Source of the DNA: Shimia sp.
GTDB taxonomy: Bacteria > Pseudomonadota > Alphaproteobacteria > Rhodobacterales > Rhodobacteraceae
Reading direction: 5' to 3'
Assembly (NCBI RefSeq): GCF_039969785.1
Contig: NZ_JBDVNC010000003.1
Coordinates: 513 to 64,512, forward strand
DNA: 64,000 bases
Shown here: piece after piece, positions 28,351 through 46,837 of the stretch
Numbering within the stretch: the stretch's first letter is position 1
Layout of the letters: each line of letters begins with the position of its first letter
Made by a program: the position numbers and the translations under genes
The notes under the pieces: model-generated
The model's database searches: none
What the model was told of the DNA's origin: nothing
The model's input: only the letters and a program-made list of their open reading frames with translations

Positions 28351-31300
28351 ATGACGATACATACCCTGACTGGTTTTGCCTTTATTCGCGACCTCTCGAC
28401 AAACGATGAGCCCGTCACGGATGTACGGACGTCCATCGAAATGCGGATTGCGGTTCCCGACAATGTGTCGGGTTTCTCATATTCCTATCTGCCCAATCAG
28501 CCCAGCGATGACGATTTTCTGGTCGACATCTCGGTCAACGATATCTTTGTCGCGTTCAATGACACCACACTGGAAGACATCGATCTTTATCCCGAAGAAA
28601 GAATAGAAGTCAGCGTGATCCAGCTCAGCTGGGGTGCGGGCAAAGTAACCCAGCTCTTGGTGGTCGATATCATCGACGAAGAGGCCGGAGAAGAAGAAGA
28701 GGCCACGCTGGCTTTCCGTATCGGCGGAGATGCCCTGCCCACGTTCAATTCGGTGGCGGATTTCACTGCGTTTGAGAACTCAATCACCAGCGATGCGTTT
28801 GTGCCCGGTTCCAGCGCGGTTGGGCCCAACAAATCCATCCTCTATGCCAACCTGCCCGGAGTGGTCAGCCAGAGCGACACTATCATCAGTGGCACCGACA
28901 ATGATGACGAGCTGGATGGCACCAATGGCAATGATGCCTTCGTGATCGGCGAAACCCGTGGCGAAGATCAGGTCAACGCCTCGGGGGGGGATGACTATAT
29001 TGTTTTCACCAGCAGCCAGAGGCCCGATTTTTATTCGATTGACTATCGCGGGATCAGCGGCCCCATCACCATCGATCTGGATGCGGATTGGGCCATCGGC
29101 ACCGTGACCAAGGCGGGGCTTGGCATCGACCATCTGATCGATGTGCATCAGGCGGCCAATTACGAGGTCGACAGTCTGGGCGGTGAAGGTGTGTTCTTTT
29201 ATGGCACCTCCGGCAATGACACGTTCAACATCAACATGGACGAAAATACTTGGATCGGCGTCCGTGGCAGCGGCGGCAATGACACGTTCAATATCGGCAA
29301 TGGTGCGAACCTGCGCATCGACTATCGCGAGGCGGCCAGTGGCATTAACGCCAACCTCAATACCGGTCTCAATACCGGTGAGGTGCGGGACGGGGATGGC
29401 GGCACCGACCAGATCATCATCGGTGCCAACAGCGATGTGCGTATCGAAATTCATGGCAGCGACAATACCGACACGATCGTGGGCAGTGGCCGCGATGAAC
29501 GTTTCATCCTGCGCGAGGGCAATGACACGCTGGATGCGGGTGGCGGATGGGATGTTTTGCGCTATGATCGCTCAGGCGTCGGCCCTGTAACGGTCAACCT
29601 GGCCACAGAGACGGCGACAGGTACATGGAATGGCAACGCCTTCACCCATTCGATTGCCGGGATCGAAGAGGTCCGCGGCTCGCGCTCTGACAGCGACAGC
29701 ATCACCGGGGATGGCAACGACAACTCGTTCCGTGGTCGCGGGGGTGACGACACGCTGAATGGCGGCGGCGGCAACGACACGCTGGTGGGCGAAGAAGGCG
29801 ATGATGTCATTGACGGCGGCGCCGGACGGGATGAGGCGCAATTCTGGATCAACCGGTCCGAGGCGACGATTACCCAGTCGGGCAACAATGCCACGGTTGT
29901 GTCGTCACTGGGCACGGATATTTTGACCAATGTAGAAGTACTGGCCTTCAATGATCAGGCAGTCGAAATCGGAACCGCCACTGCCACCCCGGGTGATGAC
30001 GTTCTGGCCCTGACCAATGGGGATGACACAATCAACGGCTTGGCCGGAAATGACGTGATCGAAGGCCGGGATGGCAATGACAGCATCATCGGCGGACAGG
30101 GCGATGACTCGCTGCGGGGCGAAAACGGCAACGACACGCTGTTTGGCGGCGAAGGCCGCGACAATCTCTATGGCCAGAACGGCAATGACCGTCTGGATGC
30201 CTCGGGCGGCAGCGCCGCGAGCCAGGGATGGGGCGATTATATCCGCCCCGGCCTGGGCAATGACACTATCATTGGCCATGCTGGTCACTGGGCCACCGAT
30301 GAGGGCGCCGATCTCAGCTATGGCGAATTGAACGGTGTTGGCGGGATCACCATCAATGTTGGTGCCGACGGCACCGGCACCGCCAACAGCGGCAATGGTC
30401 AGTCCAACGACAACTTTACCTACATTCACTACTTCGAAGGCTCACAGGACGCCGACAACATCACCGGCAGCAATGAAGATCGTTGGGAAGGCTTCTCCGG
30501 TCTTGGTGGCAATGACACGATCAATGGTCGTGGCGGTGACAACCGGGCCGATTATTCCAACGACGAAGACTGGGGCGGCGCTGCCGTCGGGATCTCGGGC
30601 ACATTCAGCTCGACCGGCAATACGATAAATGGCCAGGTACAGGATGCTTTTGGCGACACGGATACGCTGATCAATGTCAACCAGATCAGGGGCACGGATT
30701 ATGGCGACACGCTGAATGCCTCAAACAGTGACATTGGCATTCGCTTCGAAGGTGAAGATGGCAATGACGATCTGATTGGCAGTCGCGGCGATGACCGTCT
30801 GGAAGGCGACGCAGGTAATGATACGCTGATCGGCGGCGACGGGCGTGACCGGATGTATGGTGGTGATGGCAACGATCTGATTGATGCTTCGGGTGGTGCA
30901 GCCAACACGCAGGGGGACTGGGGAGATTTCATCCGGGCGGGTCTTGGACAGGACACCATTCTGGGCCACCAGGGCCTGTACAATACCGGCAACGGTGTCG
31001 ACATCTCTTACAGCGATGTCTCCGGCGTCGGTGGTCTGACCGTCACCCGGGGCGCAAATGGCAGCGGCAGTGTGGTCAGCGGCGATGGCCGGGTGAACGA
31101 CAGCTTCACCTTTATTCACGCCATCACCGGATCGCAGGACAACGACGTGTTCAATGGGTCGAACGTGGCAGGCACCCACTTTGCCGTCTGGGGCGGTCTT
31201 GGTGGCAATGACACCATCAATGGCGGATCGGGTGATGTCGACATCATCTACTTTGGTGATGACCAATGGAGCGGCGGTATCGATGCGGTGAGTGTGAACT

Positions 31301-32721
31301 TCACCAGCGCGGGCGGTGGCACGGCGATTGACGGCTTTGGCGGCCACGATACGTTCACCGGAATTGAAGGCGCGTTTGGCACCGATTTCGACGACACGCT
31401 GGATGGCAATGCCGGGGCCCAGGGGCTGTATGGCTCTGACGGCGATGACATTATCTTTGGCCGGGCTGGCAACGACGAGCTGGACGGCGGCGACGGCAAT
31501 GACGAGCTGCGTGGCGGCGAAGGCAATGACGAGATCATTGACGGCGATGGCAATGATGCGGTGTTTGGCGGCAATGGCGCGGACAACCTGATTTGGGGCC
31601 GGGGCGAAGATACCTTTGATGGCGGCAATGGCAACGATACGCTGAGAGCTGATCTGGGCGTCTACGCAGCTGATGAATTCGACGTCGAGGTTAATCTCCA
31701 GAGCGGAGAAGCCGGGGCCATTGGCAGTACGTTCAATCGCGATCAGGTAATCAGCATCGAGAATGTCATCTTCGAAAATGCCCTGATCGATGCGGCACTG
31801 ACTGGCAATGACGCAGCCAATATCCTGACATCTAATCAGGGCACCGATACGCTTTTGGGTGGGAATGGCGCGGATACGCTGAATGCGGGCGCAGGTAATG
31901 ACATCGTTGCGGGCGGCAATGGTCGCGATCTGGCCAATCTGGGTAATGGCGCGGATGTGTTCAATGACAATGCACAAGGCACCGATGCAGGCCGGGATAC
32001 GGTGTTTGGCGGTAACGGCAATGACACGATCAATGGCGGTGGCGGCTTTGACGAATTCCGGGGCGACGCCGGCAATGACTCGATTCTGGGCGGTGGCGGC
32101 TTTGACCAGCTCTTTGGCGGCGCCGGATCCGATACGCTTCTTGGCGGTTTGGGCAATGACACGGTCGGCGGCGGCGACGGACGCGACGAGGCGCGCCTGG
32201 GCAACGGCTTTGACGTCTTCAACGATAACGGCCAGGGCGATGACGCCGGGCGTGACACGGTGTTTGGTGGCAATGGCAATGACACGGTCAACGGTGGTGG
32301 TGGGTTCGATGAATTCTACGGCGAGGCCGGGAATGACGTACTCTTTGGCGGCAACGGGTTTGACCGGCTATTTGGCGGTGCAAATGCGGACCAACTGTTT
32401 GGCGGCGCGGGCAATGACACGTTGAACGGTGGTGTCGGTCAGGACCAGATGACAGGTGGCGCTGGGTTGGACCGGTTCGTCTTTGCGAGCGGGTTTGGCA
32501 CTGACACGATCTTTGGCTTTGATGCCGCGGATGGAGAGAAGATCAACCTCGCTGGCGTGGGCGCAATCACGGATTTCGCAGATCTGGTGATGAACCATCT
32601 TGAAGACGCAAGCGGTACGGCGCGGATTGTGGCAGGGACGAATTCGATCCTGCTTGATGGGGTGAATTTTGCCGATGTGGGTATCGGACTGGCCTATTCA
32701 GGAGATGATTTCATCTTCTGA
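28351..32721 (+). CDS. RTX calcium-binding secreted protein (1456 aa), unknown N-terminal domain and internal duplications
   Basis: GGAG SD; numerous GGxGxDxL nonapeptides; C-terminus YSGDDFIF. Confidence 0.92.
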   Translation: MTIHTLTGFAFIRDLSTNDEPVTDVRTSIEMRIAVPDNVSGFSYSYLPNQPSDDDFLVDISVNDIFVAFNDTTLEDIDLYPEERIEVSVIQLSWGAGKVTQLLVVDIIDEEAGEEEEATLAFRIGGDALPTFNSVADFTAFENSITSDAFVPGSSAVGPNKSILYANLPGVVSQSDTIISGTDNDDELDGTNGNDAFVIGETRGEDQVNASGGDDYIVFTSSQRPDFYSIDYRGISGPITIDLDADWAIGTVTKAGLGIDHLIDVHQAANYEVDSLGGEGVFFYGTSGNDTFNINMDENTWIGVRGSGGNDTFNIGNGANLRIDYREAASGINANLNTGLNTGEVRDGDGGTDQIIIGANSDVRIEIHGSDNTDTIVGSGRDERFILREGNDTLDAGGGWDVLRYDRSGVGPVTVNLATETATGTWNGNAFTHSIAGIEEVRGSRSDSDSITGDGNDNSFRGRGGDDTLNGGGGNDTLVGEEGDDVIDGGAGRDEAQFWINRSEATITQSGNNATVVSSLGTDILTNVEVLAFNDQAVEIGTATATPGDDVLALTNGDDTINGLAGNDVIEGRDGNDSIIGGQGDDSLRGENGNDTLFGGEGRDNLYGQNGNDRLDASGGSAASQGWGDYIRPGLGNDTIIGHAGHWATDEGADLSYGELNGVGGITINVGADGTGTANSGNGQSNDNFTYIHYFEGSQDADNITGSNEDRWEGFSGLGGNDTINGRGGDNRADYSNDEDWGGAAVGISGTFSSTGNTINGQVQDAFGDTDTLINVNQIRGTDYGDTLNASNSDIGIRFEGEDGNDDLIGSRGDDRLEGDAGNDTLIGGDGRDRMYGGDGNDLIDASGGAANTQGDWGDFIRAGLGQDTILGHQGLYNTGNGVDISYSDVSGVGGLTVTRGANGSGSVVSGDGRVNDSFTFIHAITGSQDNDVFNGSNVAGTHFAVWGGLGGNDTINGGSGDVDIIYFGDDQWSGGIDAVSVNFTSAGGGTAIDGFGGHDTFTGIEGAFGTDFDDTLDGNAGAQGLYGSDGDDIIFGRAGNDELDGGDGNDELRGGEGNDEIIDGDGNDAVFGGNGADNLIWGRGEDTFDGGNGNDTLRADLGVYAADEFDVEVNLQSGEAGAIGSTFNRDQVISIENVIFENALIDAALTGNDAANILTSNQGTDTLLGGNGADTLNAGAGNDIVAGGNGRDLANLGNGADVFNDNAQGTDAGRDTVFGGNGNDTINGGGGFDEFRGDAGNDSILGGGGFDQLFGGAGSDTLLGGLGNDTVGGGDGRDEARLGNGFDVFNDNGQGDDAGRDTVFGGNGNDTVNGGGGFDEFYGEAGNDVLFGGNGFDRLFGGANADQLFGGAGNDTLNGGVGQDQMTGGAGLDRFVFASGFGTDTIFGFDAADGEKINLAGVGAITDFADLVMNHLEDASGTARIVAGTNSILLDGVNFADVGIGLAYSGDDFIF

Positions 32722-32753
32722 AGTTGACCCTTACTTCAAGCAACACGTAATTG

Positions 32754-32783
32754 AGCCCCAGAATGCAAATTCTGGGGCTTTTT
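32754..32783 (+). terminator. Rho-independent terminator
   Basis: AGCCCCAGAAT-GCAA-ATTCTGGGGCT followed by TTTT. Confidence 0.8.
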
Positions 32784-32812
32784 CGTCATTTGGTTCTGCA
32801 ATAGTGATGCGG

Positions 32813-32841
32813 ATTTGCAAAAAATAAAGAATTTTGCAAAT
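32813..32841. promoter_or_regulatory. Candidate operator upstream of the GH12-RTX gene
   Basis: ATTTGCAAAA-N9-TTTTGCAAAT perfect 10-bp inverted repeat in an AT-rich intergenic region. Confidence 0.4.
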
Positions 32842-32976
32842 TAAAGGAGTGAAGGGAAAAGCAGACGCATTCGTTTACTAGTATGATGCTACAAACTTGC
32901 CTGTATGGTCTGATTTGCATCGTTACCATACGAGAGTGGTCGGCAGGACATTTGAATTAGGGAGCTCGCGAAGCGC

Positions 32977-35900
32977 ATGATTACCATTACAGAAGACGAC
33001 AATGTCTGGATCGGAGACGCGTGGTATGCCCATAACAACGCTTGGAACCGGGGCGACCTGATCAACGGAACGGATTACACACAATCGATCACCCTGACCG
33101 AGAGTACCTTTCCCCAAGGTGTCACGATGGCCTGGGACTGGCCCAACACCAACGAAGACTATGTCTATGCTTATCCGGAACTGACCATCGGTCAGAAGCC
33201 ATGGATCGACCTGCCCACCACGTATGACCATTTCCCGATCAAGGTCGACGACATCGTCAATCTCGATCTGAACTTCGACATGGATTGGACACAGGACGCC
33301 GATAGTGACTTTTTCATCGCGGTCTCGCTCTGGCTGTCCAACGACCCGGACGGCGATATCTTTTCCACCGAAAACGAGATCATGGTCTGGTTGAAACCCA
33401 AGGATTCCGATCCTGCGGGCGTAAACACCGCCGTGACCGGCACTGACGGCTTGGGCACCTACCAGATCTGGATGAAAGAGGACCAAACCGACACGTCGGG
33501 TCAACAGACCCATGTCTGGGACTTCCTGTCGCCCACCTATAACGCCAACCTCAAAAACGGCACGCTCGACATCGATGCGATGCTGAACAACATGGTCAAC
33601 AGCGGCCTCGTCAGCTCAGGCCTTTGGTTAACCAGCGTCGAGATCGGCGCCGAGGTTGTTTATGGCAGCGGCAGCCTGACCATCAATGATCTCAGCCTGG
33701 ATCTGCAGGAAGTCGGCGGGCTGGGTAGTGAGCACACCGGCGATGGAAACGCCAACACGCTCAATGGACGTCATGGCGATGACACGATCCGTGGCCTTGG
33801 CGGTGACGACACGCTCTTGGGGATGAGCGGCAATGACACTATTCATGGCGGTGGAGGCGCTGATTCGCTGGATGGTGGCAGCGGCAATGACACGCTCAAT
33901 GCCGGCAACGACAGCGCGAGCGACACAATCAACCCTGGTAAAGGCAATGATCTGATTCAGATGAGCGGCACTAGCGGCGTCTGGGATCTGTTGTTCGTCT
34001 CCGAAAGCGGCACCAAGACGGTGACCGGCACCGGCCCGGGTACGGACAGCGAAGGCATTCTGATCGGTCACCAGATGGCCTTTACCGGTCAGCGCAGCGG
34101 CATGACCGTCGATTTTGCCGCAGGCACGGCGACCAATTCCGATGTTACGGTCGATTTCTCGGGTGCGCTTGTGTTCAACCTTGCGGGTGGATCAGGCCAT
34201 GATGACACCTTTATGGGCGGCAACACGACCTTTGATCACTGGGAACAATTTATCGGATTTGGCGGCAACGACACGTTCAACGGGGGCGATGGCATCGATG
34301 CCGTCAGCTTTGGCGCCGAGATCGAGACCGGTTATTGGGATGCGCCGCGTACGATCCAGTATCTGGGCACACAAGGCGCAGTGGTCGACTTGGGGCTGGG
34401 CACTGGCACGGACACCTACGGCGACACCGATACCTATATCGACATCGAAGCCTTGGTCGGCACTGATCTGGATGACAGCTTTACCGGTGGTGCCGAGGAC
34501 AACTTCTTTGTTGGCAATGATGGCAGTGATACCCTCAATGGTGGCGATGGCGACGACGCCTTCCTAGGCGGTGCCGGCGCAGACCAAATTGACGGGGGGG
34601 CCGGCAACGACACGATCAGCTTTGCCCGGGAGATCCTGCAGCTGGGCGGCACCCAGGGTGTGAATGTAAACCTCTCCACCGGTGTCACCACCGATACATT
34701 CGGCAATGTTGACAACATCCGCAATGTGGAAGCCATCACCGGCACCGACATGGCCGATTCCTTTATCGGCAGTGCTGCGGGCGAACGTTTTGCCGGTCTC
34801 ACCGGCAATGATCGCTTTGCCATGGGCAATGGTAACGATGAGGCATTCGGCGACAATGGGTTCGATACGATCGATGGTGGCAAGGGCCGCGACACGCTTG
34901 TGGGCGGCAAGGGCAATGACAGTGTTGTAGGCGGCGACGGTAATGATGAGGTCAGCGGCAATAACGGCAATGACCGGCTGTTTGGCGGCATTGGCAATGA
35001 CAAGATCTTTGGTGGGTTCGGCAATGACTTTGCCATGGGTGGCGGTGGATTTGACTCAATCTATGGCGGGGATGGCAACGACACGCTCGAAGGTTTCAAC
35101 GGCAACGACTTCTTGCTCGCCGGAGGTGGCAACGATGTTCTGAGCGGTGGCGAAGGCAACGATACGCTGAACGGGGGGAGCGGGCTTGACCAGGTGTTCG
35201 GAGGAGGGGGCAATGACACGATCTATGGCGATGTCGGCGCCGACACGCTTGAGGGGCAGGCTGGCAATGACAGCCTGTTGGCCGGGCTTGGCAACGACGT
35301 CCTTTGGGGTCATGCCGACGATGACACGCTTGTCGGAGCGGGCGGGGCTGACCGACTGAATGGCGGCGCGGGTGCCGACTCGCTCATGGGAGGGCTGGGT
35401 AATGACCTCCTGATTGGCTATGACGGGGCCGATACGTTGATTGGCGATGACGGTACCGACACGCTCAATGGCGGGGCTGATAATGACTTGCTGCTGGACA
35501 ATGCAGAGGGCGGCCCGGTGGGCAATGACCTCTTCAATGGCGGGGCTGGCAATGACACGATCCGGGCCTCAGGCGGGGCCGACACACTCAATGGCGGGAA
35601 TCAGAACGATCTGATGTATGGTGGTGACGGCGGTGACAGTATCTATGGCAGCAACGGGGCTGACACGATTTATGGCAATGCCGGGCGGGACCGGATGTTT
35701 GGTGGATTCGGCAATGACGTCTTCTATGACAGCATGGTCAACAACCTCGATGGCAATGATACCTTCTTTGGCGGCGGCGGCAATGATACCGTGACCGCAG
35801 GCGGAGGGAATGACGTTGTGAACGGCGAGGCCGGCGCCGATGTATTGAATGGCAATGCAGGAAATGACACGCTGCGCGGTGGGGGTGGCAATGACACGAT

Positions 35901-37827: not shown

Positions 37828-37867
37828 TCCGGGCAAACGTCCCTTCTGACATGTCAGCATGAAAGCG

Positions 37868-37897
37868 CCGGGCCCTGATCATTGGGGCCCGGTTTTT
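37868..37897 (+). terminator. Rho-independent terminator
   Basis: CCGGGCCC-N9-GGGCCCGG followed by TTTTT. Confidence 0.7.
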
Positions 37898-37936
37898 CTT
37901 TGCACATTCTCTAGGTTGTGACACACTTCTTAGGCA

Positions 37937-39907
37937 TTGATTAAAGAGGTTTTTCCCCTGCCCCTTATCCCCGGAACCACAGCCAGCGAGACCCTGACTG
38001 GCACGGCGGGCGATGACACGATCCTTGGTAATGGCGGCGTCGACACAATCCGCGCCGGAGAGGGGGATGATCTGATCGTTCTGGCAGCGGCCAACCATGA
38101 CATAAGAGGCGGCGCAGGCATTGATACGTTGGAATTCTCAATCCGCTCTGAGCTTGTCACCGTGAATGTTGGAGAGAGTTTGTACATCTCGGGGCGCGGC
38201 CTGGCGGATCGGGCGCCATTCTTTGTCGCCACGGGCGGCGGCATTGAGCACGTCATCCTCGCCGCCACAAGCTTTATCGACTTTTCAGTCAGCGGCCCTG
38301 CGGAGCATCACCTGACCTTGCGAGGCACCCCGTCAGATCTCTATTTCCGCGGTGCCGAAAGTGACAGCCCCACCGCGAAAGACCGCCTTGTGCTTGACCA
38401 GATCTCGCTGGACTCCGGCACCGTCACAGGCATGAGCCGGGCCTATTTCGAGGCCAATTTCACTCCGGCACAGATCGACAGATACCCCGGAAACTCGCAA
38501 TTACGCTGGTATCTGTCTGACCCGAACAGCGGTTTTGCAATGGACCTGACCGGTCTCGAAGAGATTGCGTTTACCGATGGGGTGTTCGAGGTCAACAGCC
38601 TGTTTGGTATCTCCTCCCTGACGCAAGGGGCCGATGATGGGCTTGGCAGTGACCAGGTGGACATGGTCCAGCTTCTGGACGGGGACGATCGCTTTCGCGG
38701 GCTTGGGGGCGATGATGTTCTTCTGGGCGGGACCGGAGAAGATACGATTTTTGCAGGGAACGGCGATGATCTTGTCTATGGCGGTCACGATATGGATCTC
38801 TTGCAGGCTGGGGCCGGGCGGGATCAGGTTTATGGCAATAGCGGGAATGATGTCCTCATCGGGCTCGACGGCAAGGATCGACTTAACGGGGGCGCGGGCG
38901 ACGATCTGATCCAAGGCGGGCGCGGGGCTGACACGCTCCTTGGGGGCGCGGGCGATGACACGGTTGCCGGACGGCGGGGCAATGACCAGGCCTCGCTTGG
39001 GGACGGGGATGATCTCTTTCTCGATCTGGATCGGGGCGAGACGGCGGGGCGCGACACGGTCTATGGGGGTACCGGGCGGGACACAATCGAAGGCCGCGGC
39101 GGAGATGACAAATTCTATGGTGGAGACGGGCACGACCAGATCAAGGGCGGACTGGGCGATGACACGATTTTTGGTGAAATCGGCAATGATATGCTCTGGG
39201 GTGGGCTTGGCAATGACAGCCTGTCCGGCGGGTTTGGTGCCGATACGATCTATGCCCGCGAGGGCGATGACACTGTCAAAGGCGGGGACGGGCGCGATCT
39301 TGTCTATCTGGGCAGCGGCGATGATGTGTTTGTCTACACACTTCAGGGCGGTGAACAGGGTGCTGATACAGTTCAAGGCGGGGACGGAAATGACACGATC
39401 ACCGTCTGGGGCGATGATCTGGTACACGGTGGGACAGGTGATGACCTTTTGAGCTCAGATGTACGTAGTAGCCCGCGGCTCTTTGGTGGTGAAGGGAACG
39501 ATACCCTCTTTGGCGGATTGGACACAAATGAGCTCTTTGGCGGAAACGGAAATGACAGCCTGTCTGGCGGCGGCGGGCGGGACACGCTCTTTGGCGGAAT
39601 GGGCGACGATACGCTGAACGGCGGCGCGCGCAATGACACGCTGACCGGCGGGGATGGGGCGGATGTCTTTGTCTACGCCGGCCTCAGCAGTTTTCGCTTT
39701 AACCAGGACCTGATCACGGATTTCGAAACTGGAGGCGATCAGCTGGACTTCGCAAGATATACGAACGTGACCGGCTACCTGCAGGGGTTTACCATCGCAG
39801 CCTGGGGCCCGAATGGCACCCGGATCGACATCACCGGCAACGATGACACCATTTTCCTTGCCGGTGTTGTCCTCGATGATCTCTCTACGGATGGCTTTAT
39901 TTTCTGA
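37937..39907 (+). CDS. RTX calcium-binding secreted protein (start uncertain: TTG 37937 or CTG 37958)
   Basis: GGxGxD repeats; C-terminus VTGYLQGFT...DGFIF. Confidence 0.85.
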   Translation: MIKEVFPLPLIPGTTASETLTGTAGDDTILGNGGVDTIRAGEGDDLIVLAAANHDIRGGAGIDTLEFSIRSELVTVNVGESLYISGRGLADRAPFFVATGGGIEHVILAATSFIDFSVSGPAEHHLTLRGTPSDLYFRGAESDSPTAKDRLVLDQISLDSGTVTGMSRAYFEANFTPAQIDRYPGNSQLRWYLSDPNSGFAMDLTGLEEIAFTDGVFEVNSLFGISSLTQGADDGLGSDQVDMVQLLDGDDRFRGLGGDDVLLGGTGEDTIFAGNGDDLVYGGHDMDLLQAGAGRDQVYGNSGNDVLIGLDGKDRLNGGAGDDLIQGGRGADTLLGGAGDDTVAGRRGNDQASLGDGDDLFLDLDRGETAGRDTVYGGTGRDTIEGRGGDDKFYGGDGHDQIKGGLGDDTIFGEIGNDMLWGGLGNDSLSGGFGADTIYAREGDDTVKGGDGRDLVYLGSGDDVFVYTLQGGEQGADTVQGGDGNDTITVWGDDLVHGGTGDDLLSSDVRSSPRLFGGEGNDTLFGGLDTNELFGGNGNDSLSGGGGRDTLFGGMGDDTLNGGARNDTLTGGDGADVFVYAGLSSFRFNQDLITDFETGGDQLDFARYTNVTGYLQGFTIAAWGPNGTRIDITGNDDTIFLAGVVLDDLSTDGFIF

Positions 39908-39988: not shown

Positions 39989-40029
39989 GCGCCCCGCCAA
40001 AAGTTGTTATTCAGGTTTTGGCGGGGCGC
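39989..40029. terminator. 14-bp perfect inverted repeat between RTX genes
   Basis: GCGCCCCGCCAAAA (39989-40002) and TTTTGGCGGGGCGC (40016-40029). Confidence 0.5.
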
Positions 40030-40282: not shown

Positions 40283-42358
40283 ATGGCTGTAATCAACGGG
40301 ACAAACGCACGTGATATTCTGCCGGGAACACGGTTTGACGACATCATTTCAGGGAAAGATAGTGATGACGTTATCCATGGCAATGCTGGATTTGACAGCA
40401 TCACGGGAGATCTGGGCAACGATATCATACAGGGTGGCGAAAATGCTGATACGATATTGGGCGGTGGAGGCGATGACATCGCCTATGGCGGTTCTGGCGG
40501 GGACCTTCTGATCGGGGATAGTGGCGACAGCGGTGGGTCTGCCGATACGACGCTCATCACCACATCAAGCACGGCCGTCATTCCGTCTTCCGGCCAGGAT
40601 TTTTCAATCAGCTTGACCGCGCCGGATGAACATGTCGGTTCGGCCTACACGATTTCCGGGTTCGTCTCGACAACACCTGTGGTCGGCAATGATGTGAATA
40701 TAGCACTGGTGGTAGATGTATCAGGATCAACCGGATACGGCTATTCGGGCACTCCGGTCGGTGATTTAAATGGTGACGGCGTGTCCAACACCATTCTAGA
40801 TGGGGAAATCGCAGGGTCTATTGCCTTGATAGAGTCGGTTATTGCGGCTGGATTCGGTGACGCCACAATCAACCTGATCACATTCGACGGTAGCGTGCAG
40901 AAAAACGTGACCATGCGAGCAGACAGAGACTCGAATGGCAATGGTATTCTGGACCTGGAAGAGGAGCTACGCGGGCTAAACGATCTGGGTGGAACAGACT
41001 TTGAGCCTCCTTTGCAGCAAGCCATAAACTTCTTCAATGGCCAGCCCGCGGGGGAAAGCAACTATGTATTCTTCCTCTCAGATGGCGTCCCCTTTTCTTC
41101 GAGCAATTTTCTGGACGAAGCTGCAACCCTGCGCGATTCAAGCGGCATTAATGCAACGATCCGCACCTTCCCGATTGGCAGTGGCGCCAGCGTCACCACC
41201 CTAGATGAAATGGACGATGGCGCGTTAAACGATTCCTCGTCCCGGATCACAGATCCCGGTGCCCTGAGCGCAGCCCTCACCGGAGGAGGAATTTCTCCTG
41301 CAGACGTCGTGGAATTACGCGTCTTCGTCAACGGTACGCTGGAGCGGACTATCCCATCTTCAGCCTTGGTCCAAACACCATTCGGATTGAAGTATGAAGT
41401 GGACCTAACAGGTCTGAGCACGACAGACCCCGAGACCATAAGAGTGGTTGCCATAGCCAACGATGGTGCTTCGACCAGAGTTCAGACCAGTCAGGTGGTC
41501 GAAAACCCCCAGGAAGATGGCAATGATGTCCTGTTCGGCGGAACCGGATCGGACACTCTCGTTGGCGAAGGCGGCGACGATGCCCTGTTCGGCGGTATGG
41601 GCAATGACTTGGTCAATGGCGGGGTTGGCGCCGACACGTTGTTTGGCGGCGAAGGCTACGACAGTCTGAACGGCGGAAGGGGGGCCGACAACCTGTACGG
41701 TGTGACCGGAAATGATGTTCTGAGCGGTCAGAATGGCAATGACAAGCTGTTCGGGGGCGAAGGTTCTGACACGCTCTATGGCGGAGATGGGAACGACACG
41801 GTCCATGGCGGGAACGGTGCAGACAAAGCCCTTCTGGGCAACGGCGCGGACGTGTTCTTTGACAATGATGAGAGCGGAGACGCGGGACGCGACACAGTCT
41901 TTGGCGGGAACGGCTATGATACTGTGAATGGCGGCGGCGGCAACGATGTATTCTACGGCGAGGCAGGCAATGATGTGCTCAGGGGTAAGAATGGCAACGA
42001 TAAATTATTTGGCGGTGCTAATGCGGATCGGCTGTTTGGTAGCGCAGGGAATGACACGCTGAACGGTGGTCTCGGCCAAGACCAGATGACGGGCGGTGAT
42101 GGACTGGATCGGTTTGTTTTTAACAGCGGCTTTGGCAATGACACGGTGTTTGGGTTCGAGGCGGCGGACGGGGAGAAGATCAACCTGGCCGGGGTGGCGG
42201 CGATCACCGGTTTCGCCGACCTGATTGCGAACCATCTCGAAGAAGCAAACGGCACCGCGCGGATCGTCGCCGGGGCAAACTCGATCCTGCTGGATGGGGT
42301 GGATGTTGCGGATGTGGGTGTGGGGCTGGCTTATTCCGGGGATGATTTCATCTTCTAA
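40283..42358 (+). CDS. vWA-domain RTX secreted protein
   Basis: GGAGG SD before ATG 40283; LVVDVSGST (DxSxS), GGTDF and FLSDG complete a MIDAS site; RTX repeats; YSGDDFIF end. Confidence 0.88.
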   Translation: MAVINGTNARDILPGTRFDDIISGKDSDDVIHGNAGFDSITGDLGNDIIQGGENADTILGGGGDDIAYGGSGGDLLIGDSGDSGGSADTTLITTSSTAVIPSSGQDFSISLTAPDEHVGSAYTISGFVSTTPVVGNDVNIALVVDVSGSTGYGYSGTPVGDLNGDGVSNTILDGEIAGSIALIESVIAAGFGDATINLITFDGSVQKNVTMRADRDSNGNGILDLEEELRGLNDLGGTDFEPPLQQAINFFNGQPAGESNYVFFLSDGVPFSSSNFLDEAATLRDSSGINATIRTFPIGSGASVTTLDEMDDGALNDSSSRITDPGALSAALTGGGISPADVVELRVFVNGTLERTIPSSALVQTPFGLKYEVDLTGLSTTDPETIRVVAIANDGASTRVQTSQVVENPQEDGNDVLFGGTGSDTLVGEGGDDALFGGMGNDLVNGGVGADTLFGGEGYDSLNGGRGADNLYGVTGNDVLSGQNGNDKLFGGEGSDTLYGGDGNDTVHGGNGADKALLGNGADVFFDNDESGDAGRDTVFGGNGYDTVNGGGGNDVFYGEAGNDVLRGKNGNDKLFGGANADRLFGSAGNDTLNGGLGQDQMTGGDGLDRFVFNSGFGNDTVFGFEAADGEKINLAGVAAITGFADLIANHLEEANGTARIVAGANSILLDGVDVADVGVGLAYSGDDFIF

Positions 42359-42672
42359 GCCGAAGATCAGGACCCATAGCACTGCATAGTGCCCTCTGAC
42401 AGGGCGGGCACATCGCGTGCATGTCCACTCTTGAGCATCCCGCAGGCCACATCTGTTCCATCCGGCGGGAAACACTGTACCGCAGTCCCTTGGAGATCGG
42501 ATCCATGAGACTGGCACATGAGCGACCGGCGTTAGGACCTCGCCTGTGGCAAATTTCCGCTGCATCATGTCGCCAGATGAGCCCAATTTTGCAGAAGTCA
42601 CATTGTTGGCTTCTTCGATAGCACTGGCACCCGCTATACAACGGCTAGCTATAAATTTCCAAAGGACAGGCC

Positions 42673-44361
42673 ATGCTGACCCAAAGCGAAATCCTTGATG
42701 CGATGCAGTTTGACTTATCATTGCTCAACGGCAACAAGCTCAATGGAACTGGAGATCCGGCTTACGTGATCGACTATCAGTTTGCCGATAACGGCCAACC
42801 TGCAGACCTGTGGCAAACCTATAGCGGTTGGACCGCGATGAGTGGCCCAGAAAAAGCCGCCGTGCGTCGTGCCATGGATCATATCGAGACTTTTCTCAAC
42901 GTCTCGTTTGTCGAAGTGCCTGCTTCAAACGACCCCACAATGAATATCGGCAAGGTGTTGATCCCGGGATCCACCGCCGGATATGGCGGATACAACTATT
43001 CGGCCTTCTCGGGGGGTGTGCTGTCGGATTATGATAACTTCGCCGTCTTTGATAACGGCATAAACTTGGCCGATGACAGCGCCCATAACCTGATACTGCA
43101 CGAGATTGGCCACGCGCTGGCCTTGAAACATCCGTTTGGCACCCCTGCCCTGCCAAATACGCTTGAGAACAACAAGTACACTGTGATGTCTTACACATCG
43201 AACCCTGAAAACGGTCAGGATTCCGATGCGATGATGCTTTATGACATTCTCGCGCTGCAGGACTGGTGGGGTGCTACGACCGACTACAACACAGGGGGTA
43301 CGCTCTATACGGGGCCGCGTACCAACACAATCGATCCTCTCTGGGACACCGGCGGCAATGACACAATTGATGCCTCGGGACAGTCGGGTGCCGCGCGTCT
43401 GGATCTGCGCGAGGGGTATTTTTCGCGGTTTGGATCTTATGACGATGTGGTGATCCCCTATGACGTCACAATCGAAAACGCCATCGGTGGGATGGGCGGC
43501 GATACGATCAATGGCAATAGTGCCGCGAACACGCTCATCGGGCGTCAGGGCAACGACACACTCACCGCATTTGAGGGGGCAGATTCGCTTTTGGGGGGTA
43601 ATGGCAACGACCTTTTGGGCGGTGGGTTCGGTTATGACACGCTGAGAGGGGGCAATGGGGATGATACCGTGAATGGCGGCGTAGGCTTTGACCTGATGCA
43701 CGGGGACGCGGGTAATGACTCGCTGGATGGCGGCGATGGCGCGGATCGGATCTTTGGCGGGGCCAATGCCGATACAATCAGGGGCGGCAAGGGTAACGAC
43801 ACGGTTACAGGTGGCAATGGCCGCGACGAAGCGCGGCTTGGCAACGGGTTTGACGTATTCACCGATAATGCACAGGGCGGCGATGCGGGGCGCGATACGG
43901 TGTTTGGCGGCAACGGCAATGACACGATCAACGGCGGCGCCGGCGCGGATGTGTTTTATGGCGAGGCCGGCAATGACGTACTCTTTGGAAGCAACGGATT
44001 TGACCGATTACTTGGCGGAACCAACGCGGACCGGCTTTATGGCGGCAATGGCAATGACACGCTAACCGGAGGACTTGGCCAAGACCAGATGACCGGTGGC
44101 ACGGGACTGGATCATTTTGTGTTCGCCAGTGGATTTGGCTACGACACGATCTTTGGGTTCGAGGCTGCGGATGGTGAAAATATCAACCTAGCAGGCGTCG
44201 CGGCTATTACGGATTTCACTGATCTGATCATGCACCATCTGGAGAACGCGGACGGCACAGCACGCATCGTGGCGGGGGCCAATTCTATACTGCTCGATGG
44301 TGTGGATTTTGCCGATGTCGGCGTCGGGCTGGACTATTCGGGACATGATTTCATCTTCTGA
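42673..44361 (+). CDS. Serralysin-like (M10B) zinc metalloprotease with RTX repeats
   Basis: HEIGHALALKH zinc motif, TVMSY Met-turn, DILALQ, TLWDTGG-like and IENAIGG motifs; YSGHDFIF end. Confidence 0.9.
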   Translation: MLTQSEILDAMQFDLSLLNGNKLNGTGDPAYVIDYQFADNGQPADLWQTYSGWTAMSGPEKAAVRRAMDHIETFLNVSFVEVPASNDPTMNIGKVLIPGSTAGYGGYNYSAFSGGVLSDYDNFAVFDNGINLADDSAHNLILHEIGHALALKHPFGTPALPNTLENNKYTVMSYTSNPENGQDSDAMMLYDILALQDWWGATTDYNTGGTLYTGPRTNTIDPLWDTGGNDTIDASGQSGAARLDLREGYFSRFGSYDDVVIPYDVTIENAIGGMGGDTINGNSAANTLIGRQGNDTLTAFEGADSLLGGNGNDLLGGGFGYDTLRGGNGDDTVNGGVGFDLMHGDAGNDSLDGGDGADRIFGGANADTIRGGKGNDTVTGGNGRDEARLGNGFDVFTDNAQGGDAGRDTVFGGNGNDTINGGAGADVFYGEAGNDVLFGSNGFDRLLGGTNADRLYGGNGNDTLTGGLGQDQMTGGTGLDHFVFASGFGYDTIFGFEAADGENINLAGVAAITDFTDLIMHHLENADGTARIVAGANSILLDGVDFADVGVGLDYSGHDFIF

Positions 44362-44401
44362 CATTCCTGTGTGGCAAGGGGCTGGGACTGCTTCAGCCCC
44401 C

Positions 44402-46837
44402 TCAGCCAAACAGGAAGTCATCCGCGTCAAGCGCGCGCACGCTCAGCCCATCAAGCCACAGCACATCTCCTGCGCCCACGATGCGTATGGCGGTGCCTTG
44501 TGTCGTAATTTCAAGATCTGCATAACGCGCAACCCCAGTCAGACGAATGCGGTCTTCACCCGGGGTAAAATCCCCGATACGGTCGGCATGATCGTCTGGG
44601 GAAAAGATGAACACATCCGCCCCAATCCCGCCAAACATGCGATCCGGACCCAATCCACCATCCAGCGTATCCGCGCCCCGACCACCAAAGAGTTGATCCT
44701 CCCCCTTGCGCCCCAGCAACAGGTCCTGCCCGTCCATGCCATGAAAGACATCCGCCCCAGCGCCGCCATTCACTGTATCGTTCCCTACCCCGGAAAATAC
44801 TGTATCCCGGCCGAGATCCCCAACCTGGGGATTGTCAGAAAACACATCGTTCCCCGCCCCCAGATAAGCTAGGTCGCGCCCGTTGCCACCCCAGATCCGG
44901 TCATTGCCAGCGCCGCCGTAAAACGTGTCTGCACCGGCACCACCAAAAAGCTGGTCCGGGCCCCTGCGCCCAGACAACAGGTCTTGGCCCGCCTTGCCAT
45001 GAAAGACATCGGCGCCCCCCCCACCGTTCACCGTATCGTTGCCCAGCCCACCATAGACAGTGTCATGGGCATTCTCTCCAGTCTGGATGTTATCAAAAAA
45101 CACATCGTTCCCCGCCCCCAGATAGATCAGATCGCGCCCGTTCCCACCCCAGATCCGGTCATTCTCTCCCTGACCCAGAAGCGTATCAAACCCATTGCCG
45201 CCATAGAGCATGTCCGCACCGCCCCCGCCGCGCAGCACGTCATTGCCTTGATAGCCATAGAGCGAATCCGCACCCCATTGTCCGCCCAGTGCATCGCTGG
45301 CTTCACCCCCGAGTATGGTTTCACCTGTGCCCATAAATGGCCGGTCCGGCCCTTCGAAATAACCACCAAAGATATCCTGCAGACTCAGACTTTGCCCTGA
45401 AACGCTCTGGAGCGTGATGACATCCCCCCGCCAGGTCAGCTCGGCCCCATCGCGGCGCGCCACATAATCAAGCTGGGACGGGTCATACAAAAATGTAAAG
45501 GCGGATAGATCGAGGCGATCTACGCCAATTTCGAACCCGCGGATCAGGTCGCGCTCGCCATCAAAATCCAGCACAAAGATATCGCTCCCCTGCCCCCCTG
45601 TGAGCGTGTCTCTACCAACCCCGTCCACCAGAATGTCCGCACCTTTGCCTGCCGACAGGGCATCATTGCCCGGGCCACCAATCAGGATATCGTCCTTGTC
45701 CCCTCCAGACAGACTGCCCCCTGCACCCTCAGCTCGGTGTGCAGCACCCTCCTGAACGAGGGACAAACTAAACTGGGACATGCCTGACGCGACACTGGTG
45801 GCAAAAATTTGAATATCATCGCCAAGCTGCACCGCCGCCAGCGCGCTTGGGCCAAACACCCCTGGAAAGGTGCCTTCGGCATAGCTTTGCAGATAGACAA
45901 GGCGCCCGGTTGAGAGCATCTGGAACAGACTGAAGCCGCCGTCTCCGCCACCGGCCAGCACATAGGCTCGGTCCTGTGATGTCACCACCGCCAGATCCTG
46001 GGCCTGACCAAAACGGGTATCGCGGGTGTCAAGCACGTGATCCACCGGAGCCAGACGGCCATCCCCAAGCACACGCATCACGCTGAGCGCGCCGCCCTGA
46101 TCACCCGCCGAGGCGAGGACCGCAAACGTGTTGCCCCCGATCAACGTCGTTTCAAGCGCCACTGGCCTCATGACCCCCAAGCCCTGCCCGGCCCCCATCA
46201 GGCCACGCGCCTCCAGATCCCCGCTCTCGGGGTCGATCAGATAACTGGACACACCGCGATCCGCAACATCGGTGGCCAGAAGGTAGTTTTTCCCTGAAAC
46301 AGTGACTGTATCGAGGTCGATGACCGTGTCCCGATAAACGTCTGCGCCGCCGCCCAGCTGTCCAAGAGAGATCAAATCTCCATTCTCGGATTGTCGGTAA
46401 CACTGGATCCCGCCGATGGTGGCATCTGCCGTATAAACGAAGCCTGCTAAAAAATATGTCAGTGCGGCAATGTCTTCGGTTGTGGCAGAGAGACCTCCCC
46501 AAGAGATGCCCTGCCCGATCGACGCACCGGGCCCTTCGAAATAGCCCTGCACCTCACTGCCAAGACCGCCGACCACAACGCCATTACCCACCTCATAGAG
46601 CTGTCGGCCAACGGCACGCTCTTGAACTGCGGTAAAAGCCTGCACATCCGTAAAGACAGCCGCTTGCCCCTCTTCAAGGCGCCAGCTCGCCAACCCTCCA
46701 TCCGGGCCCGACATTGCAAAAAGCACAAGCCCCGACCCCGTGTCATGCGCTGCCACATCCCGCAGGCCGATATCAATCCAATCTCGCCCGCTGAGCATTG
46801 CGGAGCGAAACGCCAACGCTACCATAACTCTCACCAT
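44402..46837 (-). CDS. RTX calcium-binding protein with a probable N-terminal beta-propeller (start may be ATG 46825)
   Basis: About 360 aa of blade-like repeats, then GGxGxD repeats; ends DDFLFG; convergent on the rest of the array. Confidence 0.85.
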   Translation of the reverse strand: MVRVMVALAFRSAMLSGRDWIDIGLRDVAAHDTGSGLVLFAMSGPDGGLASWRLEEGQAAVFTDVQAFTAVQERAVGRQLYEVGNGVVVGGLGSEVQGYFEGPGASIGQGISWGGLSATTEDIAALTYFLAGFVYTADATIGGIQCYRQSENGDLISLGQLGGGADVYRDTVIDLDTVTVSGKNYLLATDVADRGVSSYLIDPESGDLEARGLMGAGQGLGVMRPVALETTLIGGNTFAVLASAGDQGGALSVMRVLGDGRLAPVDHVLDTRDTRFGQAQDLAVVTSQDRAYVLAGGGDGGFSLFQMLSTGRLVYLQSYAEGTFPGVFGPSALAAVQLGDDIQIFATSVASGMSQFSLSLVQEGAAHRAEGAGGSLSGGDKDDILIGGPGNDALSAGKGADILVDGVGRDTLTGGQGSDIFVLDFDGERDLIRGFEIGVDRLDLSAFTFLYDPSQLDYVARRDGAELTWRGDVITLQSVSGQSLSLQDIFGGYFEGPDRPFMGTGETILGGEASDALGGQWGADSLYGYQGNDVLRGGGGADMLYGGNGFDTLLGQGENDRIWGGNGRDLIYLGAGNDVFFDNIQTGENAHDTVYGGLGNDTVNGGGGADVFHGKAGQDLLSGRRGPDQLFGGAGADTFYGGAGNDRIWGGNGRDLAYLGAGNDVFSDNPQVGDLGRDTVFSGVGNDTVNGGAGADVFHGMDGQDLLLGRKGEDQLFGGRGADTLDGGLGPDRMFGGIGADVFIFSPDDHADRIGDFTPGEDRIRLTGVARYADLEITTQGTAIRIVGAGDVLWLDGLSVRALDADDFLFG

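What the first reader, a model, noticed from the sequence alone, without database searches (positions are those of the whole stretch)
28351..46837. RTX array built from interchangeable cargo domains on two families of C-terminal secretion cassettes
Three genes with unrelated N-termini (unknown domain, vWA, M10 protease) end in a collinear cassette of 540 nt including the stop (32182-32721, 41819-42358, 43822-44361; ...FVFxSGFGxDTxFGFxAADGExINLAGV...VGxGLxYSGxDFIF). The gene at 2-520 shares its last ~85 aa. The GH12 gene and the 37937 gene share a different collinear end (37660-37827 and 39740-39907; VTGYLQGFT..W...GT..IT...D.I.L.GV...D.FIF). Established: T1SS substrates carry uncleaved C-terminal signals. 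Inferred: this is a modular secretome in which cargo is shuffled onto, or homogenised by gene conversion with, two cassette types, possibly routing to two different T1SSs or surface anchors. No T1SS transporter is in the window.
Basis: partly seen in the sequence, partly recalled or inferred. Interest (0 to 1): 0.7.

Follow-up and report, generated by a model that had tools for sequence, protein, structure and literature searches.

The report
RTX exoprotein array sharing C-terminal modules
Six neighbouring genes on a marine Roseobacter-type polysaccharide plasmid encode calcium-binding secreted proteins (a glycanase, a protease, a vWA protein and others) that all end in versions of one well-known secretion and folding module, three of them in a closely related copy that has been recombined onto unrelated enzymes; this is a clear but ordinary example of how this protein class evolves.

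Summary
g1 (28351-32721), g4 (40283-42358) and g5 (42673-44361) have unrelated N-terminal parts (unknown, vWA, M10 protease). Their ends are collinear for 720-810 nt, not 540, at about 74% nt and 80-84% aa identity. g0 (2-520) has a more distant copy (~60%). g2 (GH12) and g3 share a much weaker end (45% aa over 55 residues, with the exact motif VTGYLQGFT).

All seven ends, plus g6's, belong to one homologous family: an RTX beta-roll, a cap and a flexible tail ending D-x-F-[IL]-F. This family matches the C-termini of family I.3 lipases, serralysins and AlgE R-modules. There are at least three subtypes here, not two unrelated families.

Module exchange is shown for cassette A. The closest relatives of g5's protease domain (65-66%) carry tails that are at most 32% identical, while unrelated cargos carry tails that are 51-84% identical.

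Recent gene conversion is not supported: dS is 1.0-1.7, dN/dS about 0.06-0.1, there are no long identical tracts, and homology stops at the stop codon. In a related genome the g1, g2 and g6 orthologues keep their own tail types.

No T1SS genes are in the window, and routing to two transporters has no support. This is a new member of a known kind, of modest interest.

The parts
2..520 (+). g0: 3' end of an RTX protein gene cut by the window edge. Its last 85 aa (263-517) are a diverged cassette-A-like tail ending DDFIF.
   Evidence: (60-62% to the g1/g4/g5 tails).
28351..32721 (+). g1: 1456-aa RTX protein with an unassigned N-terminal 180 aa and long RTX blocks. It has an orthologue in L001.
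   Evidence: PF00353 only; no family for the N-terminus; L001 orthologue, 43%.
31999..32721 (+). Cassette A copy in g1: RTX beta-roll blocks plus an 85-aa cap and tail (32464-32718) plus the stop codon.
   Evidence: dN 0.10-0.11, dS 1.0-1.6 against g4/g5.
32755..32783 (+). Intrinsic terminator-like hairpin plus T-run after g1.
   Evidence: -22.4 kcal/mol for the folded 51-nt stretch 32745-32795.
32977..37827 (+). g2: 1616-aa GH12 glycoside hydrolase domain (aa 20-243, EIMVW motif) plus a very long RTX region plus a type-B tail (37552-37824).
   Evidence: orthologue in L001 at 54%.
37867..37898 (+). Strong intrinsic terminator-like hairpin after g2.
37937..39907 (+). g3: 656-aa RTX protein with an unassigned middle region and a type-B tail (39626-39904, motif VTGYLQGFT).
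40283..42358 (+). g4: 691-aa vWA-domain (MIDAS DVSGS) RTX protein. The start was set from the database gene model P0201. Cassette A copy at 41636-42358.
   Evidence: (P0201).
42673..44361 (+). g5: 562-aa serralysin-like M10 metalloprotease. Cassette A copy at 43639-44361.
44402..46837 (-). g6: 811-aa RTX protein with an unassigned N-terminal ~400 aa that is conserved in many Rhodobacterales ~960-aa calcium-binding proteins. It has its own tail subtype (44405-44659, ends DDFLFG) and an internal second copy of the tail module (45374-45616).
   Evidence: (orthologue in L001, 54%).
47701..50724 (.). Flanking KpsT-like ATPase (47701-48420, -), KpsE-like (48372-49886, -) and ABC-2 permease (49771-50724, +). 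This is a polysaccharide exporter, not a T1SS.

Best explanation
The region is a tandem array of type I secretion (T1SS) substrates. It lies inside a capsule/exopolysaccharide island on a RepA-I 'biofilm-plasmid'-like replicon of a Roseobacter-group bacterium.

Each protein joins a different N-terminal 'cargo' (GH12 glycanase, M10 protease, vWA domain, three unassigned domains) to Ca2+-binding RTX beta-roll blocks. Each ends in one homologous ~85-aa module: the last RTX turn, a helix/strand cap and a flexible tail ending D-x-F-[IL]-F. This module is the same kind as in family I.3 lipases, serralysins and AlgE R-modules.

Inferred mechanism, from established RTX biology: the unprocessed C-terminus is recognised by an ABC/MFP/OMP exporter encoded elsewhere in the genome. 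The protein leaves C-terminus first, and the cap nucleates Ca2+-driven folding of the beta-roll outside the cell.

Shown here: the 240-270-aa 'cassette A' of g1, g4 and g5 derives from one ancestral copy. It was joined to unrelated cargos by duplication or recombination of a gene's 3' end. This happened after or around the split from the L001 lineage, but long ago (dS > 1). The block has since been held by strong purifying selection (dN/dS about 0.06-0.1).

Tail subtypes B (g2, g3) and the g6 type are older branches of the same family and are inherited with their genes.

Likely role (inferred from context): secreted enzymes and adhesin-like proteins that process or organise the plasmid-encoded sulfated, rhamnose-containing polysaccharide matrix. 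This would resemble the PrsDE secretome of Rhizobium.
For: - RTX repeats are present in all the genes.
- One profile built from the seven tails hits lipase 2Z8X residues 532-614 of 617 (E 2e-8), serralysins, AlgE4/6 R-modules and CyaA block V.
- All tails hit the same NCBIfam C-termini: PueAB, SMc04171, serralysin.
- The AF2 model of cassette A (pLDDT 85) is a beta-roll plus a cap plus a low-confidence last ~20 residues. Its best structural matches are the CyaA RTX domain, PML lipase, AlgE R-modules and alkaline protease.
- The family is very large: 22,543 representative proteins at E<=1e-3.
- Incongruence: g5 cargo homologues at 65-66% identity have tails at <=32%, while tails at 51-84% sit on unrelated cargos (g1, g4, L1c, P0227, P0238, P0265, P0256).
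- The tail tree gives (g1,g4,g5) 95.5%, (g2,L1d) 90% with g3 99%, and (g6,L1e) 97.5%.
- dN, dS and identical-tract tests.
- Synteny GT-g1-g2-g6 occurs inside a polysaccharide locus in Rhodobacteraceae bacterium Alg231_30.
- Context genes, the plasmid type (PMC5030684) and the PrsDE precedent (PMC2275737; PMC3034196).
Against: - No T1SS genes are in the window or in the 20-kb L001 locus, so secretion is inferred only from sequence class.
- No expression or protein data were found: host-labelled RNA runs held no reads.
- The absence of N-terminal signal peptides was judged by eye only.
- Within-genome tails being more alike (80-84%) than the g1 orthologue's tail (69-75%) fits post-speciation duplication. 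It equally fits an old episode of concerted evolution.
- The link to the polysaccharide rests on gene neighbourhood only.
Confidence: 0.7

Rival explanations
1. One reading: cassette types A and B are address labels for two different T1SSs, or for different surface anchors, so the cell sorts cargo by swapping cassettes.
For: Tail subtypes are discrete, well-supported clades. Each has a strongly conserved signature: GxGLxYSxDDFIF in A, and VTGYLQGFT in B, which is conserved in the L001 orthologue. Some alphaproteobacteria have several T1SSs; four are reported in R. leguminosarum 3841 (PMC2275737).
Against: All tails are one family with the same terminal D-x-F-[IL]-F and the same hits to lipase- and serralysin-type C-termini. 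There are at least three subtypes, not two. In the best-studied relative, one T1SS exports at least 13 dissimilar substrates and the other T1SSs showed no detected substrates (PMC2275737). No transporter genes are linked to either type here or in L001.
Confidence: 0.1
2. Ongoing concerted evolution: gene conversion between neighbouring genes keeps the cassette A copies alike.
For: The g1, g4 and g5 tails are closer to each other (80-84% aa; dS 1.35-1.58 over 150 codons) than to the tail of the g1 orthologue (68-69% over 150 codons; dS 2.0-2.9). The genes lie within 16 kb on the same strand.
Against: Synonymous sites are near saturation between the copies. The longest identical runs (16-17 nt) are no longer than in codon-shuffled controls. 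Similarity ends at the stop codon with no shared 3' flank. L001 lacks g3-g5 at the syntenic site, and only one cassette-A locus from that genome was returned, which fits later duplication instead.
Confidence: 0.1
3. The conserved C-terminal block is kept mainly for an extracellular function. It would bind the plasmid-encoded anionic or sulfated polysaccharide or the cell surface through Ca2+, as AlgE R-modules bind alginate. Co-location with the capsule genes and the strong constraint would then reflect matrix anchoring rather than transporter recognition.
For: The tail profile and the model match AlgE4/AlgE6 R-modules. The module also occurs internally and in many copies in thousands of proteins, and once internally in g6, where it cannot be a C-terminal signal. 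The RTX trio g1-g2-g6 is conserved next to polysaccharide genes in two lineages. dN/dS is about 0.06-0.1 over 150-180 codons, more than a ~60-residue signal would need.
Against: No binding data exist. RTX cap modules are conserved for folding reasons in proteins unrelated to polysaccharides, such as lipases and CyaA. This reading is compatible with T1SS export rather than an alternative to it.
Confidence: 0.15
4. The similarity is a by-product of low-complexity RTX repeats or an assembly artefact.
For: RTX repeats align with each other everywhere at 33-45%. The assembly graph of public runs breaks inside the g1 cassette.
Against: Cassette identity (74% nt, 80-84% aa, E down to 1e-136) is far above the repeat background, and it includes the 85-aa non-repeat tail. 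Four independent runs carry the region with identical sequence and even depth.
Confidence: 0.01

Closest known systems
C-terminal RTX/secretion domain of family I.3 lipases and polyurethane esterases (Pseudomonas sp. MIS38 PML, PDB 2Z8X; NCBIfam PueAB)
   Same: An end-to-end match of the 88-position tail profile to lipase residues 532-614 of 617: the last GGxGxD turn, FVF...D.I.DF, a cap and a terminal acidic-hydrophobic tail. The fold is also shared, a beta-roll plus cap.
   Different: Identity is only about 25-30%. Cassette A has an extra GxGLxYSx insert before the terminal DDFIF. The cargos differ. The match is below the NCBIfam whole-protein cutoffs because only the C-terminus matches.
Serralysin-family metalloproteases (AprA, PrtC, Serratia protease; Pfam Peptidase_M10_C)
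   Same: g5 has the protease motifs, Peptidase_M10_C, RTX repeats and the same class of C-terminal end. Its many Rhodobacterales homologues are annotated as serralysin or M10.
   Different: g5's last ~240 aa are not those of its protease relatives (<=32% identity). They are those of co-resident g1 and g4 (82-84%). The zinc motif reads HExxHxxAxxH rather than HExxHxxGxxH.
PrsDE type I secretome of Rhizobium leguminosarum and Sinorhizobium (PlyA/PlyB/PlyC and ExsH/EglC glycanases, Rap proteins, RL0790 protease-like RTX protein)
   Same: An alphaproteobacterial set of dissimilar T1SS substrates (glycanases, a protease-like RTX protein, adhesin-like proteins) that remodel EPS and biofilm and are encoded away from the transporter (PMC2275737, PMC9298526, PMC3034196). 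The tails also hit the NCBIfam models EglC glycanase and SMc04171.
   Different: The cargo families differ: GH12 here rather than the Ply beta-helix or GH16 glycanases, and no Ra/cadherin-like domains. The genes are clustered in one array inside a kps-type capsule locus on a Roseobacter plasmid. Secretion and function are untested.
AlgE mannuronan C5-epimerase R-modules (PDB 2AGM, 2ML1-3)
   Same: The same module type: RTX beta-roll plus a C-terminal cap, secreted, acting on an extracellular polysaccharide, and repeatable within one protein.
   Different: No epimerase A-module is present. Polysaccharide binding by these tails is unproven.
RepA-I 'biofilm plasmids' with a rhamnose operon in roseobacters (PMC5030684)
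   Same: ParA is 75-79% nt identical to Phaeobacter, Leisingera and Cereibacter plasmids, and the RepA region matches 'replication initiator protein A' of Roseovarius, Loktanella and Marinovum plasmids. Also shared are rml genes, UDP-glucose dehydrogenase, a polysaccharide ABC exporter and many glycosyltransferases.
   Different: That paper does not mention RTX or T1SS genes on these plasmids. The 18-kb RTX array has no near match in PLSDB.

Membership tests
RTX proteins / type I secretion substrates | Tandem GGxGxDxUx Ca2+-binding nonapeptide repeats in the C-terminal part | tested here: met
   PF00353 hits at E 2e-22 to 1.5e-191 in all seven proteins. A beta-roll is predicted at pLDDT around 90.
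RTX proteins / type I secretion substrates | Unprocessed C-terminal secretion signal of the lipase/protease class (cap plus an acidic residue followed by hydrophobic residues at the extreme end) | tested here: met
   The tail profile aligns to the extreme C-terminus of lipase 2Z8X and to serralysins, and to PueAB and SMc04171. All tails end D-x-F-[IL]-F(G). Signal function itself was not tested.
RTX proteins / type I secretion substrates | No N-terminal Sec/Tat signal peptide | tested here: inconclusive
   By eye, no N-terminus shows a basic-hydrophobic signal peptide. No predictor was available, and the starts of g3 and g6 are uncertain.
RTX proteins / type I secretion substrates | Export depends on an ABC transporter, a membrane fusion protein and a TolC-like OMP | not testable with these tools
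   None of these is encoded in the 64-kb window or in L001.
Serralysin (M10B) metalloproteases (g5) | HExxHxxGxxH zinc site, Met-turn, Peptidase_M10_C/RTX C-domain | tested here: met
   HEIGHALALKH (G replaced by A), VMSY, PF08548 at 53.7 bits against a cutoff of 20.7. It is 57-66% identical to proteins named serralysin or M10.
Glycoside hydrolase family 12 (g2) | GH12 jelly-roll domain with catalytic Glu motifs | tested here: met
   PF01670 at 37.3 bits against a cutoff of 27 over 200 of 207 profile positions. The EIMVW motif is present. The second catalytic Glu was assigned only by eye, and activity is untested.
von Willebrand factor A domain (g4) | VWA fold with the MIDAS DxSxS motif | tested here: met
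   PF13519 at 32-34 bits against a cutoff of 27. DVSGS is at aa 165 of the 711-aa ORF numbering.
   All tails align with 13 invariant columns and score 95-122 bits on one HMM. There are three well-supported clades plus g0. Identity within B is only 42-45%.
Gene-conversion-homogenised paralogues | Near-zero synonymous divergence, or long identical tracts, between copies | tested here: not met
   dS is 1.0-1.7. The longest exact run is 16-17 nt, with P 0.33-0.79.
RepA-I rhamnose-operon biofilm plasmids | RepA-I replicase with parAB, rmlABCD and a polysaccharide ABC exporter | tested here: inconclusive
   ParA/ParB (60373-62756), a RepA-like region (63130-63888) matching 'replication initiator protein A', rmlB/D/A-like genes (52519-55595) and KpsMTE-like genes are present. 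RepA-I subtype phylogeny and rmlC were not checked.

The most novel reading that the evidence does not exclude
Cassette A would be a lineage-specific, portable 240-270-aa 'export, fold and matrix-dock' tag. It would have been copied onto new cargos on a biofilm plasmid and kept nearly unchanged at the protein level because it co-evolves with one dedicated T1SS and/or binds the plasmid's own sulfated polysaccharide. The B and g6 tail subtypes would then give different routing or retention. That would make the array a natural, programmable sorting system for a plasmid-borne biofilm secretome.
Probability: 0.12. Interest if true: 0.55.

Novelty: new member of a known kind. Interest (0 to 1): 0.3.

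Why it matters
The array is a clean, quantified case of a T1SS C-terminal module being moved between unrelated enzymes within one replicon. It also places a glycanase, a protease and a vWA protein inside the polysaccharide island of a Roseobacter biofilm-type plasmid, where RTX genes were not discussed before. If the proteins are secreted and act on the plasmid-encoded matrix, surface colonisation by roseobacters would be linked to a PrsDE-like matrix-remodelling secretome. The conserved cassette could also serve as a secretion tag in these bacteria. It does not change what is known about how RTX proteins or T1SSs work.

Tried and rejected
- Megablast of the whole array against PLSDB found no match.
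- Word-indexed protein searches with the bare tails found almost nothing: 2 hits for A and none for B. The exhaustive profile search was needed instead, but its top 150 hits are dominated by giant multi-copy proteins and said little about close relatives.
- Exact-sequence look-ups of g5 and of the Shimia fragment P0001 found no record, so the source genome and its T1SS loci could not be reached.
- Phaeobacter plasmids carry a tail 44% identical in a 359-aa calcium-binding protein, with no T1SS beside it.
- The L001 flanks hold polysaccharide genes only, no T1SS.
- Pfam and NCBIfam at relaxed thresholds gave no assignment for the N-terminal parts of g1, g3 or g6.
- Single-sequence AF2 of the g6 N-terminus was too poor to search with (pLDDT 47).
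- Host-labelled RNA-seq runs contained no reads from the array.
- The terminator/promoter scan was no richer than shuffles overall; only the hairpins after g1 and g2 are convincing.
- Chance or low-complexity similarity, and misassembly, were considered and rejected.

Full report
**What is there**

The stretch 28351-46837 holds six large genes: g1 28351-32721, g2 32977-37827, g3 37937-39907, g4 40223/40283-42358 and g5 42673-44361 on the + strand, and g6 44402-46837 on the - strand. A seventh gene, g0, is cut by the window start (2-520).

All seven proteins are rich in RTX nonapeptide repeats (PF00353, E 2e-22 to 1.5e-191). The N-terminal parts differ:
- g2 has a GH12 domain with the EIMVW motif.
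- g4 has a vWA domain with a DVSGS MIDAS motif.
- g5 is a serralysin-like M10 protease (HEIGHALALKH, VMSY, Peptidase_M10_C).
- The N-terminal parts of g1, g3 and g6 match no Pfam or NCBIfam family.

The database gene model for g4 (P0201, 691 aa) starts at the ATG at 40283.

**Check of the observation**

A self-comparison of the window finds the three claimed cassette A copies at 73-75% nucleotide identity over 577-714 nt, with E 1e-95 to 7e-136. Counted back from the stop codon without gaps, amino-acid identity stays at 50-90% for 720 nt (g1 with g4 or g5) or 810 nt (g4 with g5). It then falls to background. The block is therefore 240-270 aa, longer than the 180 aa stated.

It consists of RTX blocks followed by an 85-aa non-repeat tail. 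The RTX blocks include an unusual 86-aa super-repeat with the insert LGxGxDVFxDNxQxxDxGRDTVFGG.

The three tails are 82-84% identical to each other, and g0's tail is 60-62% identical to them.

The second claimed cassette (g2 and g3) is real but weak. It is ungapped over 55 aa at 58% nt and about 45% aa identity, with dN 0.45, and blastn does not detect it. It is marked by the exact motif VTGYLQGFT.

A six-frame HMM scan shows exactly seven terminal modules and one internal module (in g6, 45374-45616) in the whole window.

Contigs from four public runs carry the array at even depth with no differences apart from one T>C site (32268). Their assembly graphs break only inside the g1 cassette. The sequence is therefore not an assembly artefact.

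**One family, several subtypes**

All seven tails align together with 13 invariant columns (A1). A profile built from them matches these solved structures:
- the extreme C-terminus of Pseudomonas sp. MIS38 family I.3 lipase (2Z8X residues 532-614 of 617, E 2e-8);
- serralysins and alkaline proteases;
- AlgE4 and AlgE6 R-modules;
- CyaA block V.

Every tail, whatever its subtype, hits the same NCBIfam C-termini: polyurethane esterase PueAB, SMc04171, serralysin and EglC glycanase.

An AlphaFold model of the last 269 aa of g5 (pLDDT 85, pTM 0.81) is a continuous beta-roll with a helix/strand cap and a low-confidence last ~20 residues. Its structural neighbours are CyaA RTX blocks, PML lipase, AlgE R-modules and alkaline protease.

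The exhaustive search finds 22,543 representative proteins at E<=1e-3. In many of them the module is repeated or internal.

A neighbour-joining tree of the tails gives three well-supported clades in the window:
- A: g1, g4, g5 (95.5% bootstrap), with the L001 g1 orthologue and other Rhodobacterales proteins around them, and g0 deeper.
- B: g2 with its orthologue (90%), plus g3 (99%).
- The g6 type: g6 with its orthologue (97.5%).

'Two families of cassettes' is therefore better described as at least three subtypes of one well-known module. All of them end in D-x-F-[IL]-F.

**Shuffling or conversion?**

The decisive comparison used g5. Its protease domain (aa 1-285) is 65-66% identical to proteins such as P0155 and P0154 (Pseudoruegeria 'Serralysin C'). 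Their tails are at most 32% identical to g5's or are not detectable. Most of its homologues end in a different variant (...DVVFDFGGGD.LTVLNTT....SDDILT).

Tails 51-84% identical to g5's sit on proteins with unrelated N-termini: g1, g4, the g1 orthologue L1c, P0227, P0238, P0265 and P0256. The cargo and tail histories are thus incongruent. Module exchange is demonstrated for cassette A.

The exchange is not recent:
- Between the three copies dN is 0.10-0.15 and dS is 1.0-1.7.
- The longest identical run is 16-17 nt, no longer than when codon columns are shuffled (P 0.33-0.79).
- Similarity stops at the stop codon.

The three copies are closer to each other than to the tail of the g1 orthologue in Rhodobacteraceae bacterium Alg231_30. 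Over 150 codons dS is 1.35-1.58 against 2.0-2.9, and aa identity is 81-83% against 68-69%.

That genome has a syntenic locus: glycosyltransferase (80% identical), then the g1 orthologue with an A tail, the g2 orthologue with a B tail, and the g6 orthologue with the g6-type tail. It lacks g3-g5 at that site, and only this one locus from it was returned by the cassette search.

The simplest reading is that g3-g5 were added in the window's lineage. In that step the A block was copied onto a vWA cargo and onto a protease that previously carried an ordinary serralysin-type tail. Purifying selection (dN/dS about 0.06-0.1) has kept the block since. An old episode of concerted evolution cannot be excluded. 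Ongoing conversion is not supported. For g2 and g6, tail type follows orthology.

**Context**

The window has ParA/ParB and a RepA-like gene whose nearest DNA matches are Phaeobacter, Leisingera, Cereibacter, Roseovarius, Loktanella and Marinovum plasmids.

It also carries:
- rmlB/D/A-like genes, GDP-mannose and UDP-glucose dehydrogenase genes, and many glycosyltransferases;
- at least four sulfotransferases and a sulfatase;
- a KpsE/KpsT/KpsM-like exporter.

This matches the RepA-I 'biofilm plasmids' of roseobacters. The paper describing them does not mention RTX genes (PMC5030684).

No T1SS ABC, HlyD or TolC gene is present in the window or in L001. g1 and g2 are each followed by a strong terminator-like hairpin, and a hairpin lies between the convergent g5 and g6. 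GC and GC3 are uniform across the array and its neighbours.

**How it most likely works**

Shown here: domain composition, module homology, fold class, module exchange, age and constraint, and conserved linkage of g1-g2-g6 with polysaccharide genes in two lineages.

Inferred from established RTX biology (PMC3034196):
- The proteins are exported C-terminus first by a T1SS encoded elsewhere.
- The cap nucleates Ca2+-driven beta-roll folding outside the cell.
- The cargos then act extracellularly.

The closest functional precedent is the PrsDE system of Rhizobium leguminosarum. One T1SS there exports at least 13 dissimilar proteins, including EPS glycanases, a protease-like RTX protein and adhesin-like Rap proteins. 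These are encoded across the genome and shape EPS length and biofilm (PMC2275737, PMC9298526). By analogy, g2 (GH12) probably trims the plasmid-encoded polysaccharide, and g4, g5 and the others modify or organise the matrix. This is inference from neighbourhood only.

**Rivals**

- Routing of A and B to different transporters has no positive evidence. The shared terminal motif and shared known relatives speak against it, but it cannot be tested without the genome.
- A polysaccharide-binding role for the module (AlgE R-module-like) would explain the strong constraint over 150-180 codons and the internal copy in g6. It is compatible with T1SS export.
- Chance similarity and misassembly are rejected.

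**Verdict**

This is a well-documented new instance of a known kind of system: modular RTX T1SS substrates. It has a clear case of cassette exchange and an interesting location on a biofilm-type plasmid, but no new mechanism. Interest 0.3.

Noticed in passing
window 31894-32421; 44681-45163: An 86-aa (258-nt) RTX super-repeat containing the non-canonical insert LGxGxDVFxDNxQxxDxGRDTVFGG is tandemly duplicated in g1 and in g6. It is present once in g3, g4 and g5, so it is shared across tail subtypes A, B and the g6 type. In the AF2 model it forms a short helical bulge in the beta-roll.
   Followed up: partly
window 45374-45616 (-): g6 carries an internal second copy of the C-terminal tail module (aa 408-488, E 8e-11) upstream of its main RTX region. 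The L001 orthologue has one too. An internal copy cannot act as a C-terminal signal.
   Followed up: partly
window 1-64000: The window looks like most of a ~69.5-kb RepA-I-type roseobacter 'biofilm plasmid'. It has parAB (60373-62756), a repA-like gene (63130-63888), rml genes (52519-55595), ugd (57101-58429) and kpsE/T/M-like genes (47701-50724). It also has an unusually high number of sulfotransferases (5912-6811, 7447-8328, 16616-17299, 19019-19786) and a sulfatase (2504-3967), which suggests a sulfated polysaccharide.
   Followed up: partly
window 4238-5005 (+): A Mutator-family transposase fragment (255 aa, covering profile positions 11-220 of 379) lies between g0 and the sulfotransferase genes. 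It is a possible trace of rearrangement separating g0 from the main array.
   Followed up: no
window 13429-15390 (-): A 653-aa ORF in the most GC-rich part of the window (0.61) has no Pfam or NCBIfam match. Next to it is a right-handed beta-helix protein (17510-18922) that could be a polysaccharide lyase or epimerase.
   Followed up: no
window 32118-32685, 32268: In the Logan contigs of four public runs, the assembly graph fragments only within the g1 cassette, and a T>C variant appears at 32268. This probably reflects k-mer sharing with paralogous RTX genes elsewhere in the genome, or strain variation.
   Followed up: partly
window 40283-44361 (runs X1-X24): The runs holding this sequence share a species label that also covers 40-60-Gb PacBio and oligo-dT RNA-seq libraries. 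The label is therefore probably a eukaryotic host, with the plasmid belonging to an associated bacterium. Three host RNA-seq runs had no reads on the array. One seawater metatranscriptome contig matches g4 at 41204-41461 with one mismatch.
   Followed up: partly
L001 (FREU01000008.1, Rhodobacteraceae bacterium Alg231_30) 4589-18227: A syntenic GT-g1-g2-g6 block occurs in another genus-level lineage. There the g6 orthologue is on the same strand as g1 and g2 and no g3-g5 are present, which implies an insertion plus an inversion in the window's lineage.
   Followed up: yes
window 45728-46837 (-), proteins P0245, P0249, P0269 and others: The unassigned ~400-aa N-terminal domain of g6 is conserved (27-38% identity) in ~900-970-aa 'calcium-binding proteins' of many Rhodobacterales (Thalassovita, Pseudooceanicola, Aliiroseovarius plasmid, Sulfitobacter). 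This is a widespread uncharacterised RTX protein family. Single-sequence AF2 hints at beta-sheet repeats but at low confidence.
   Followed up: partly
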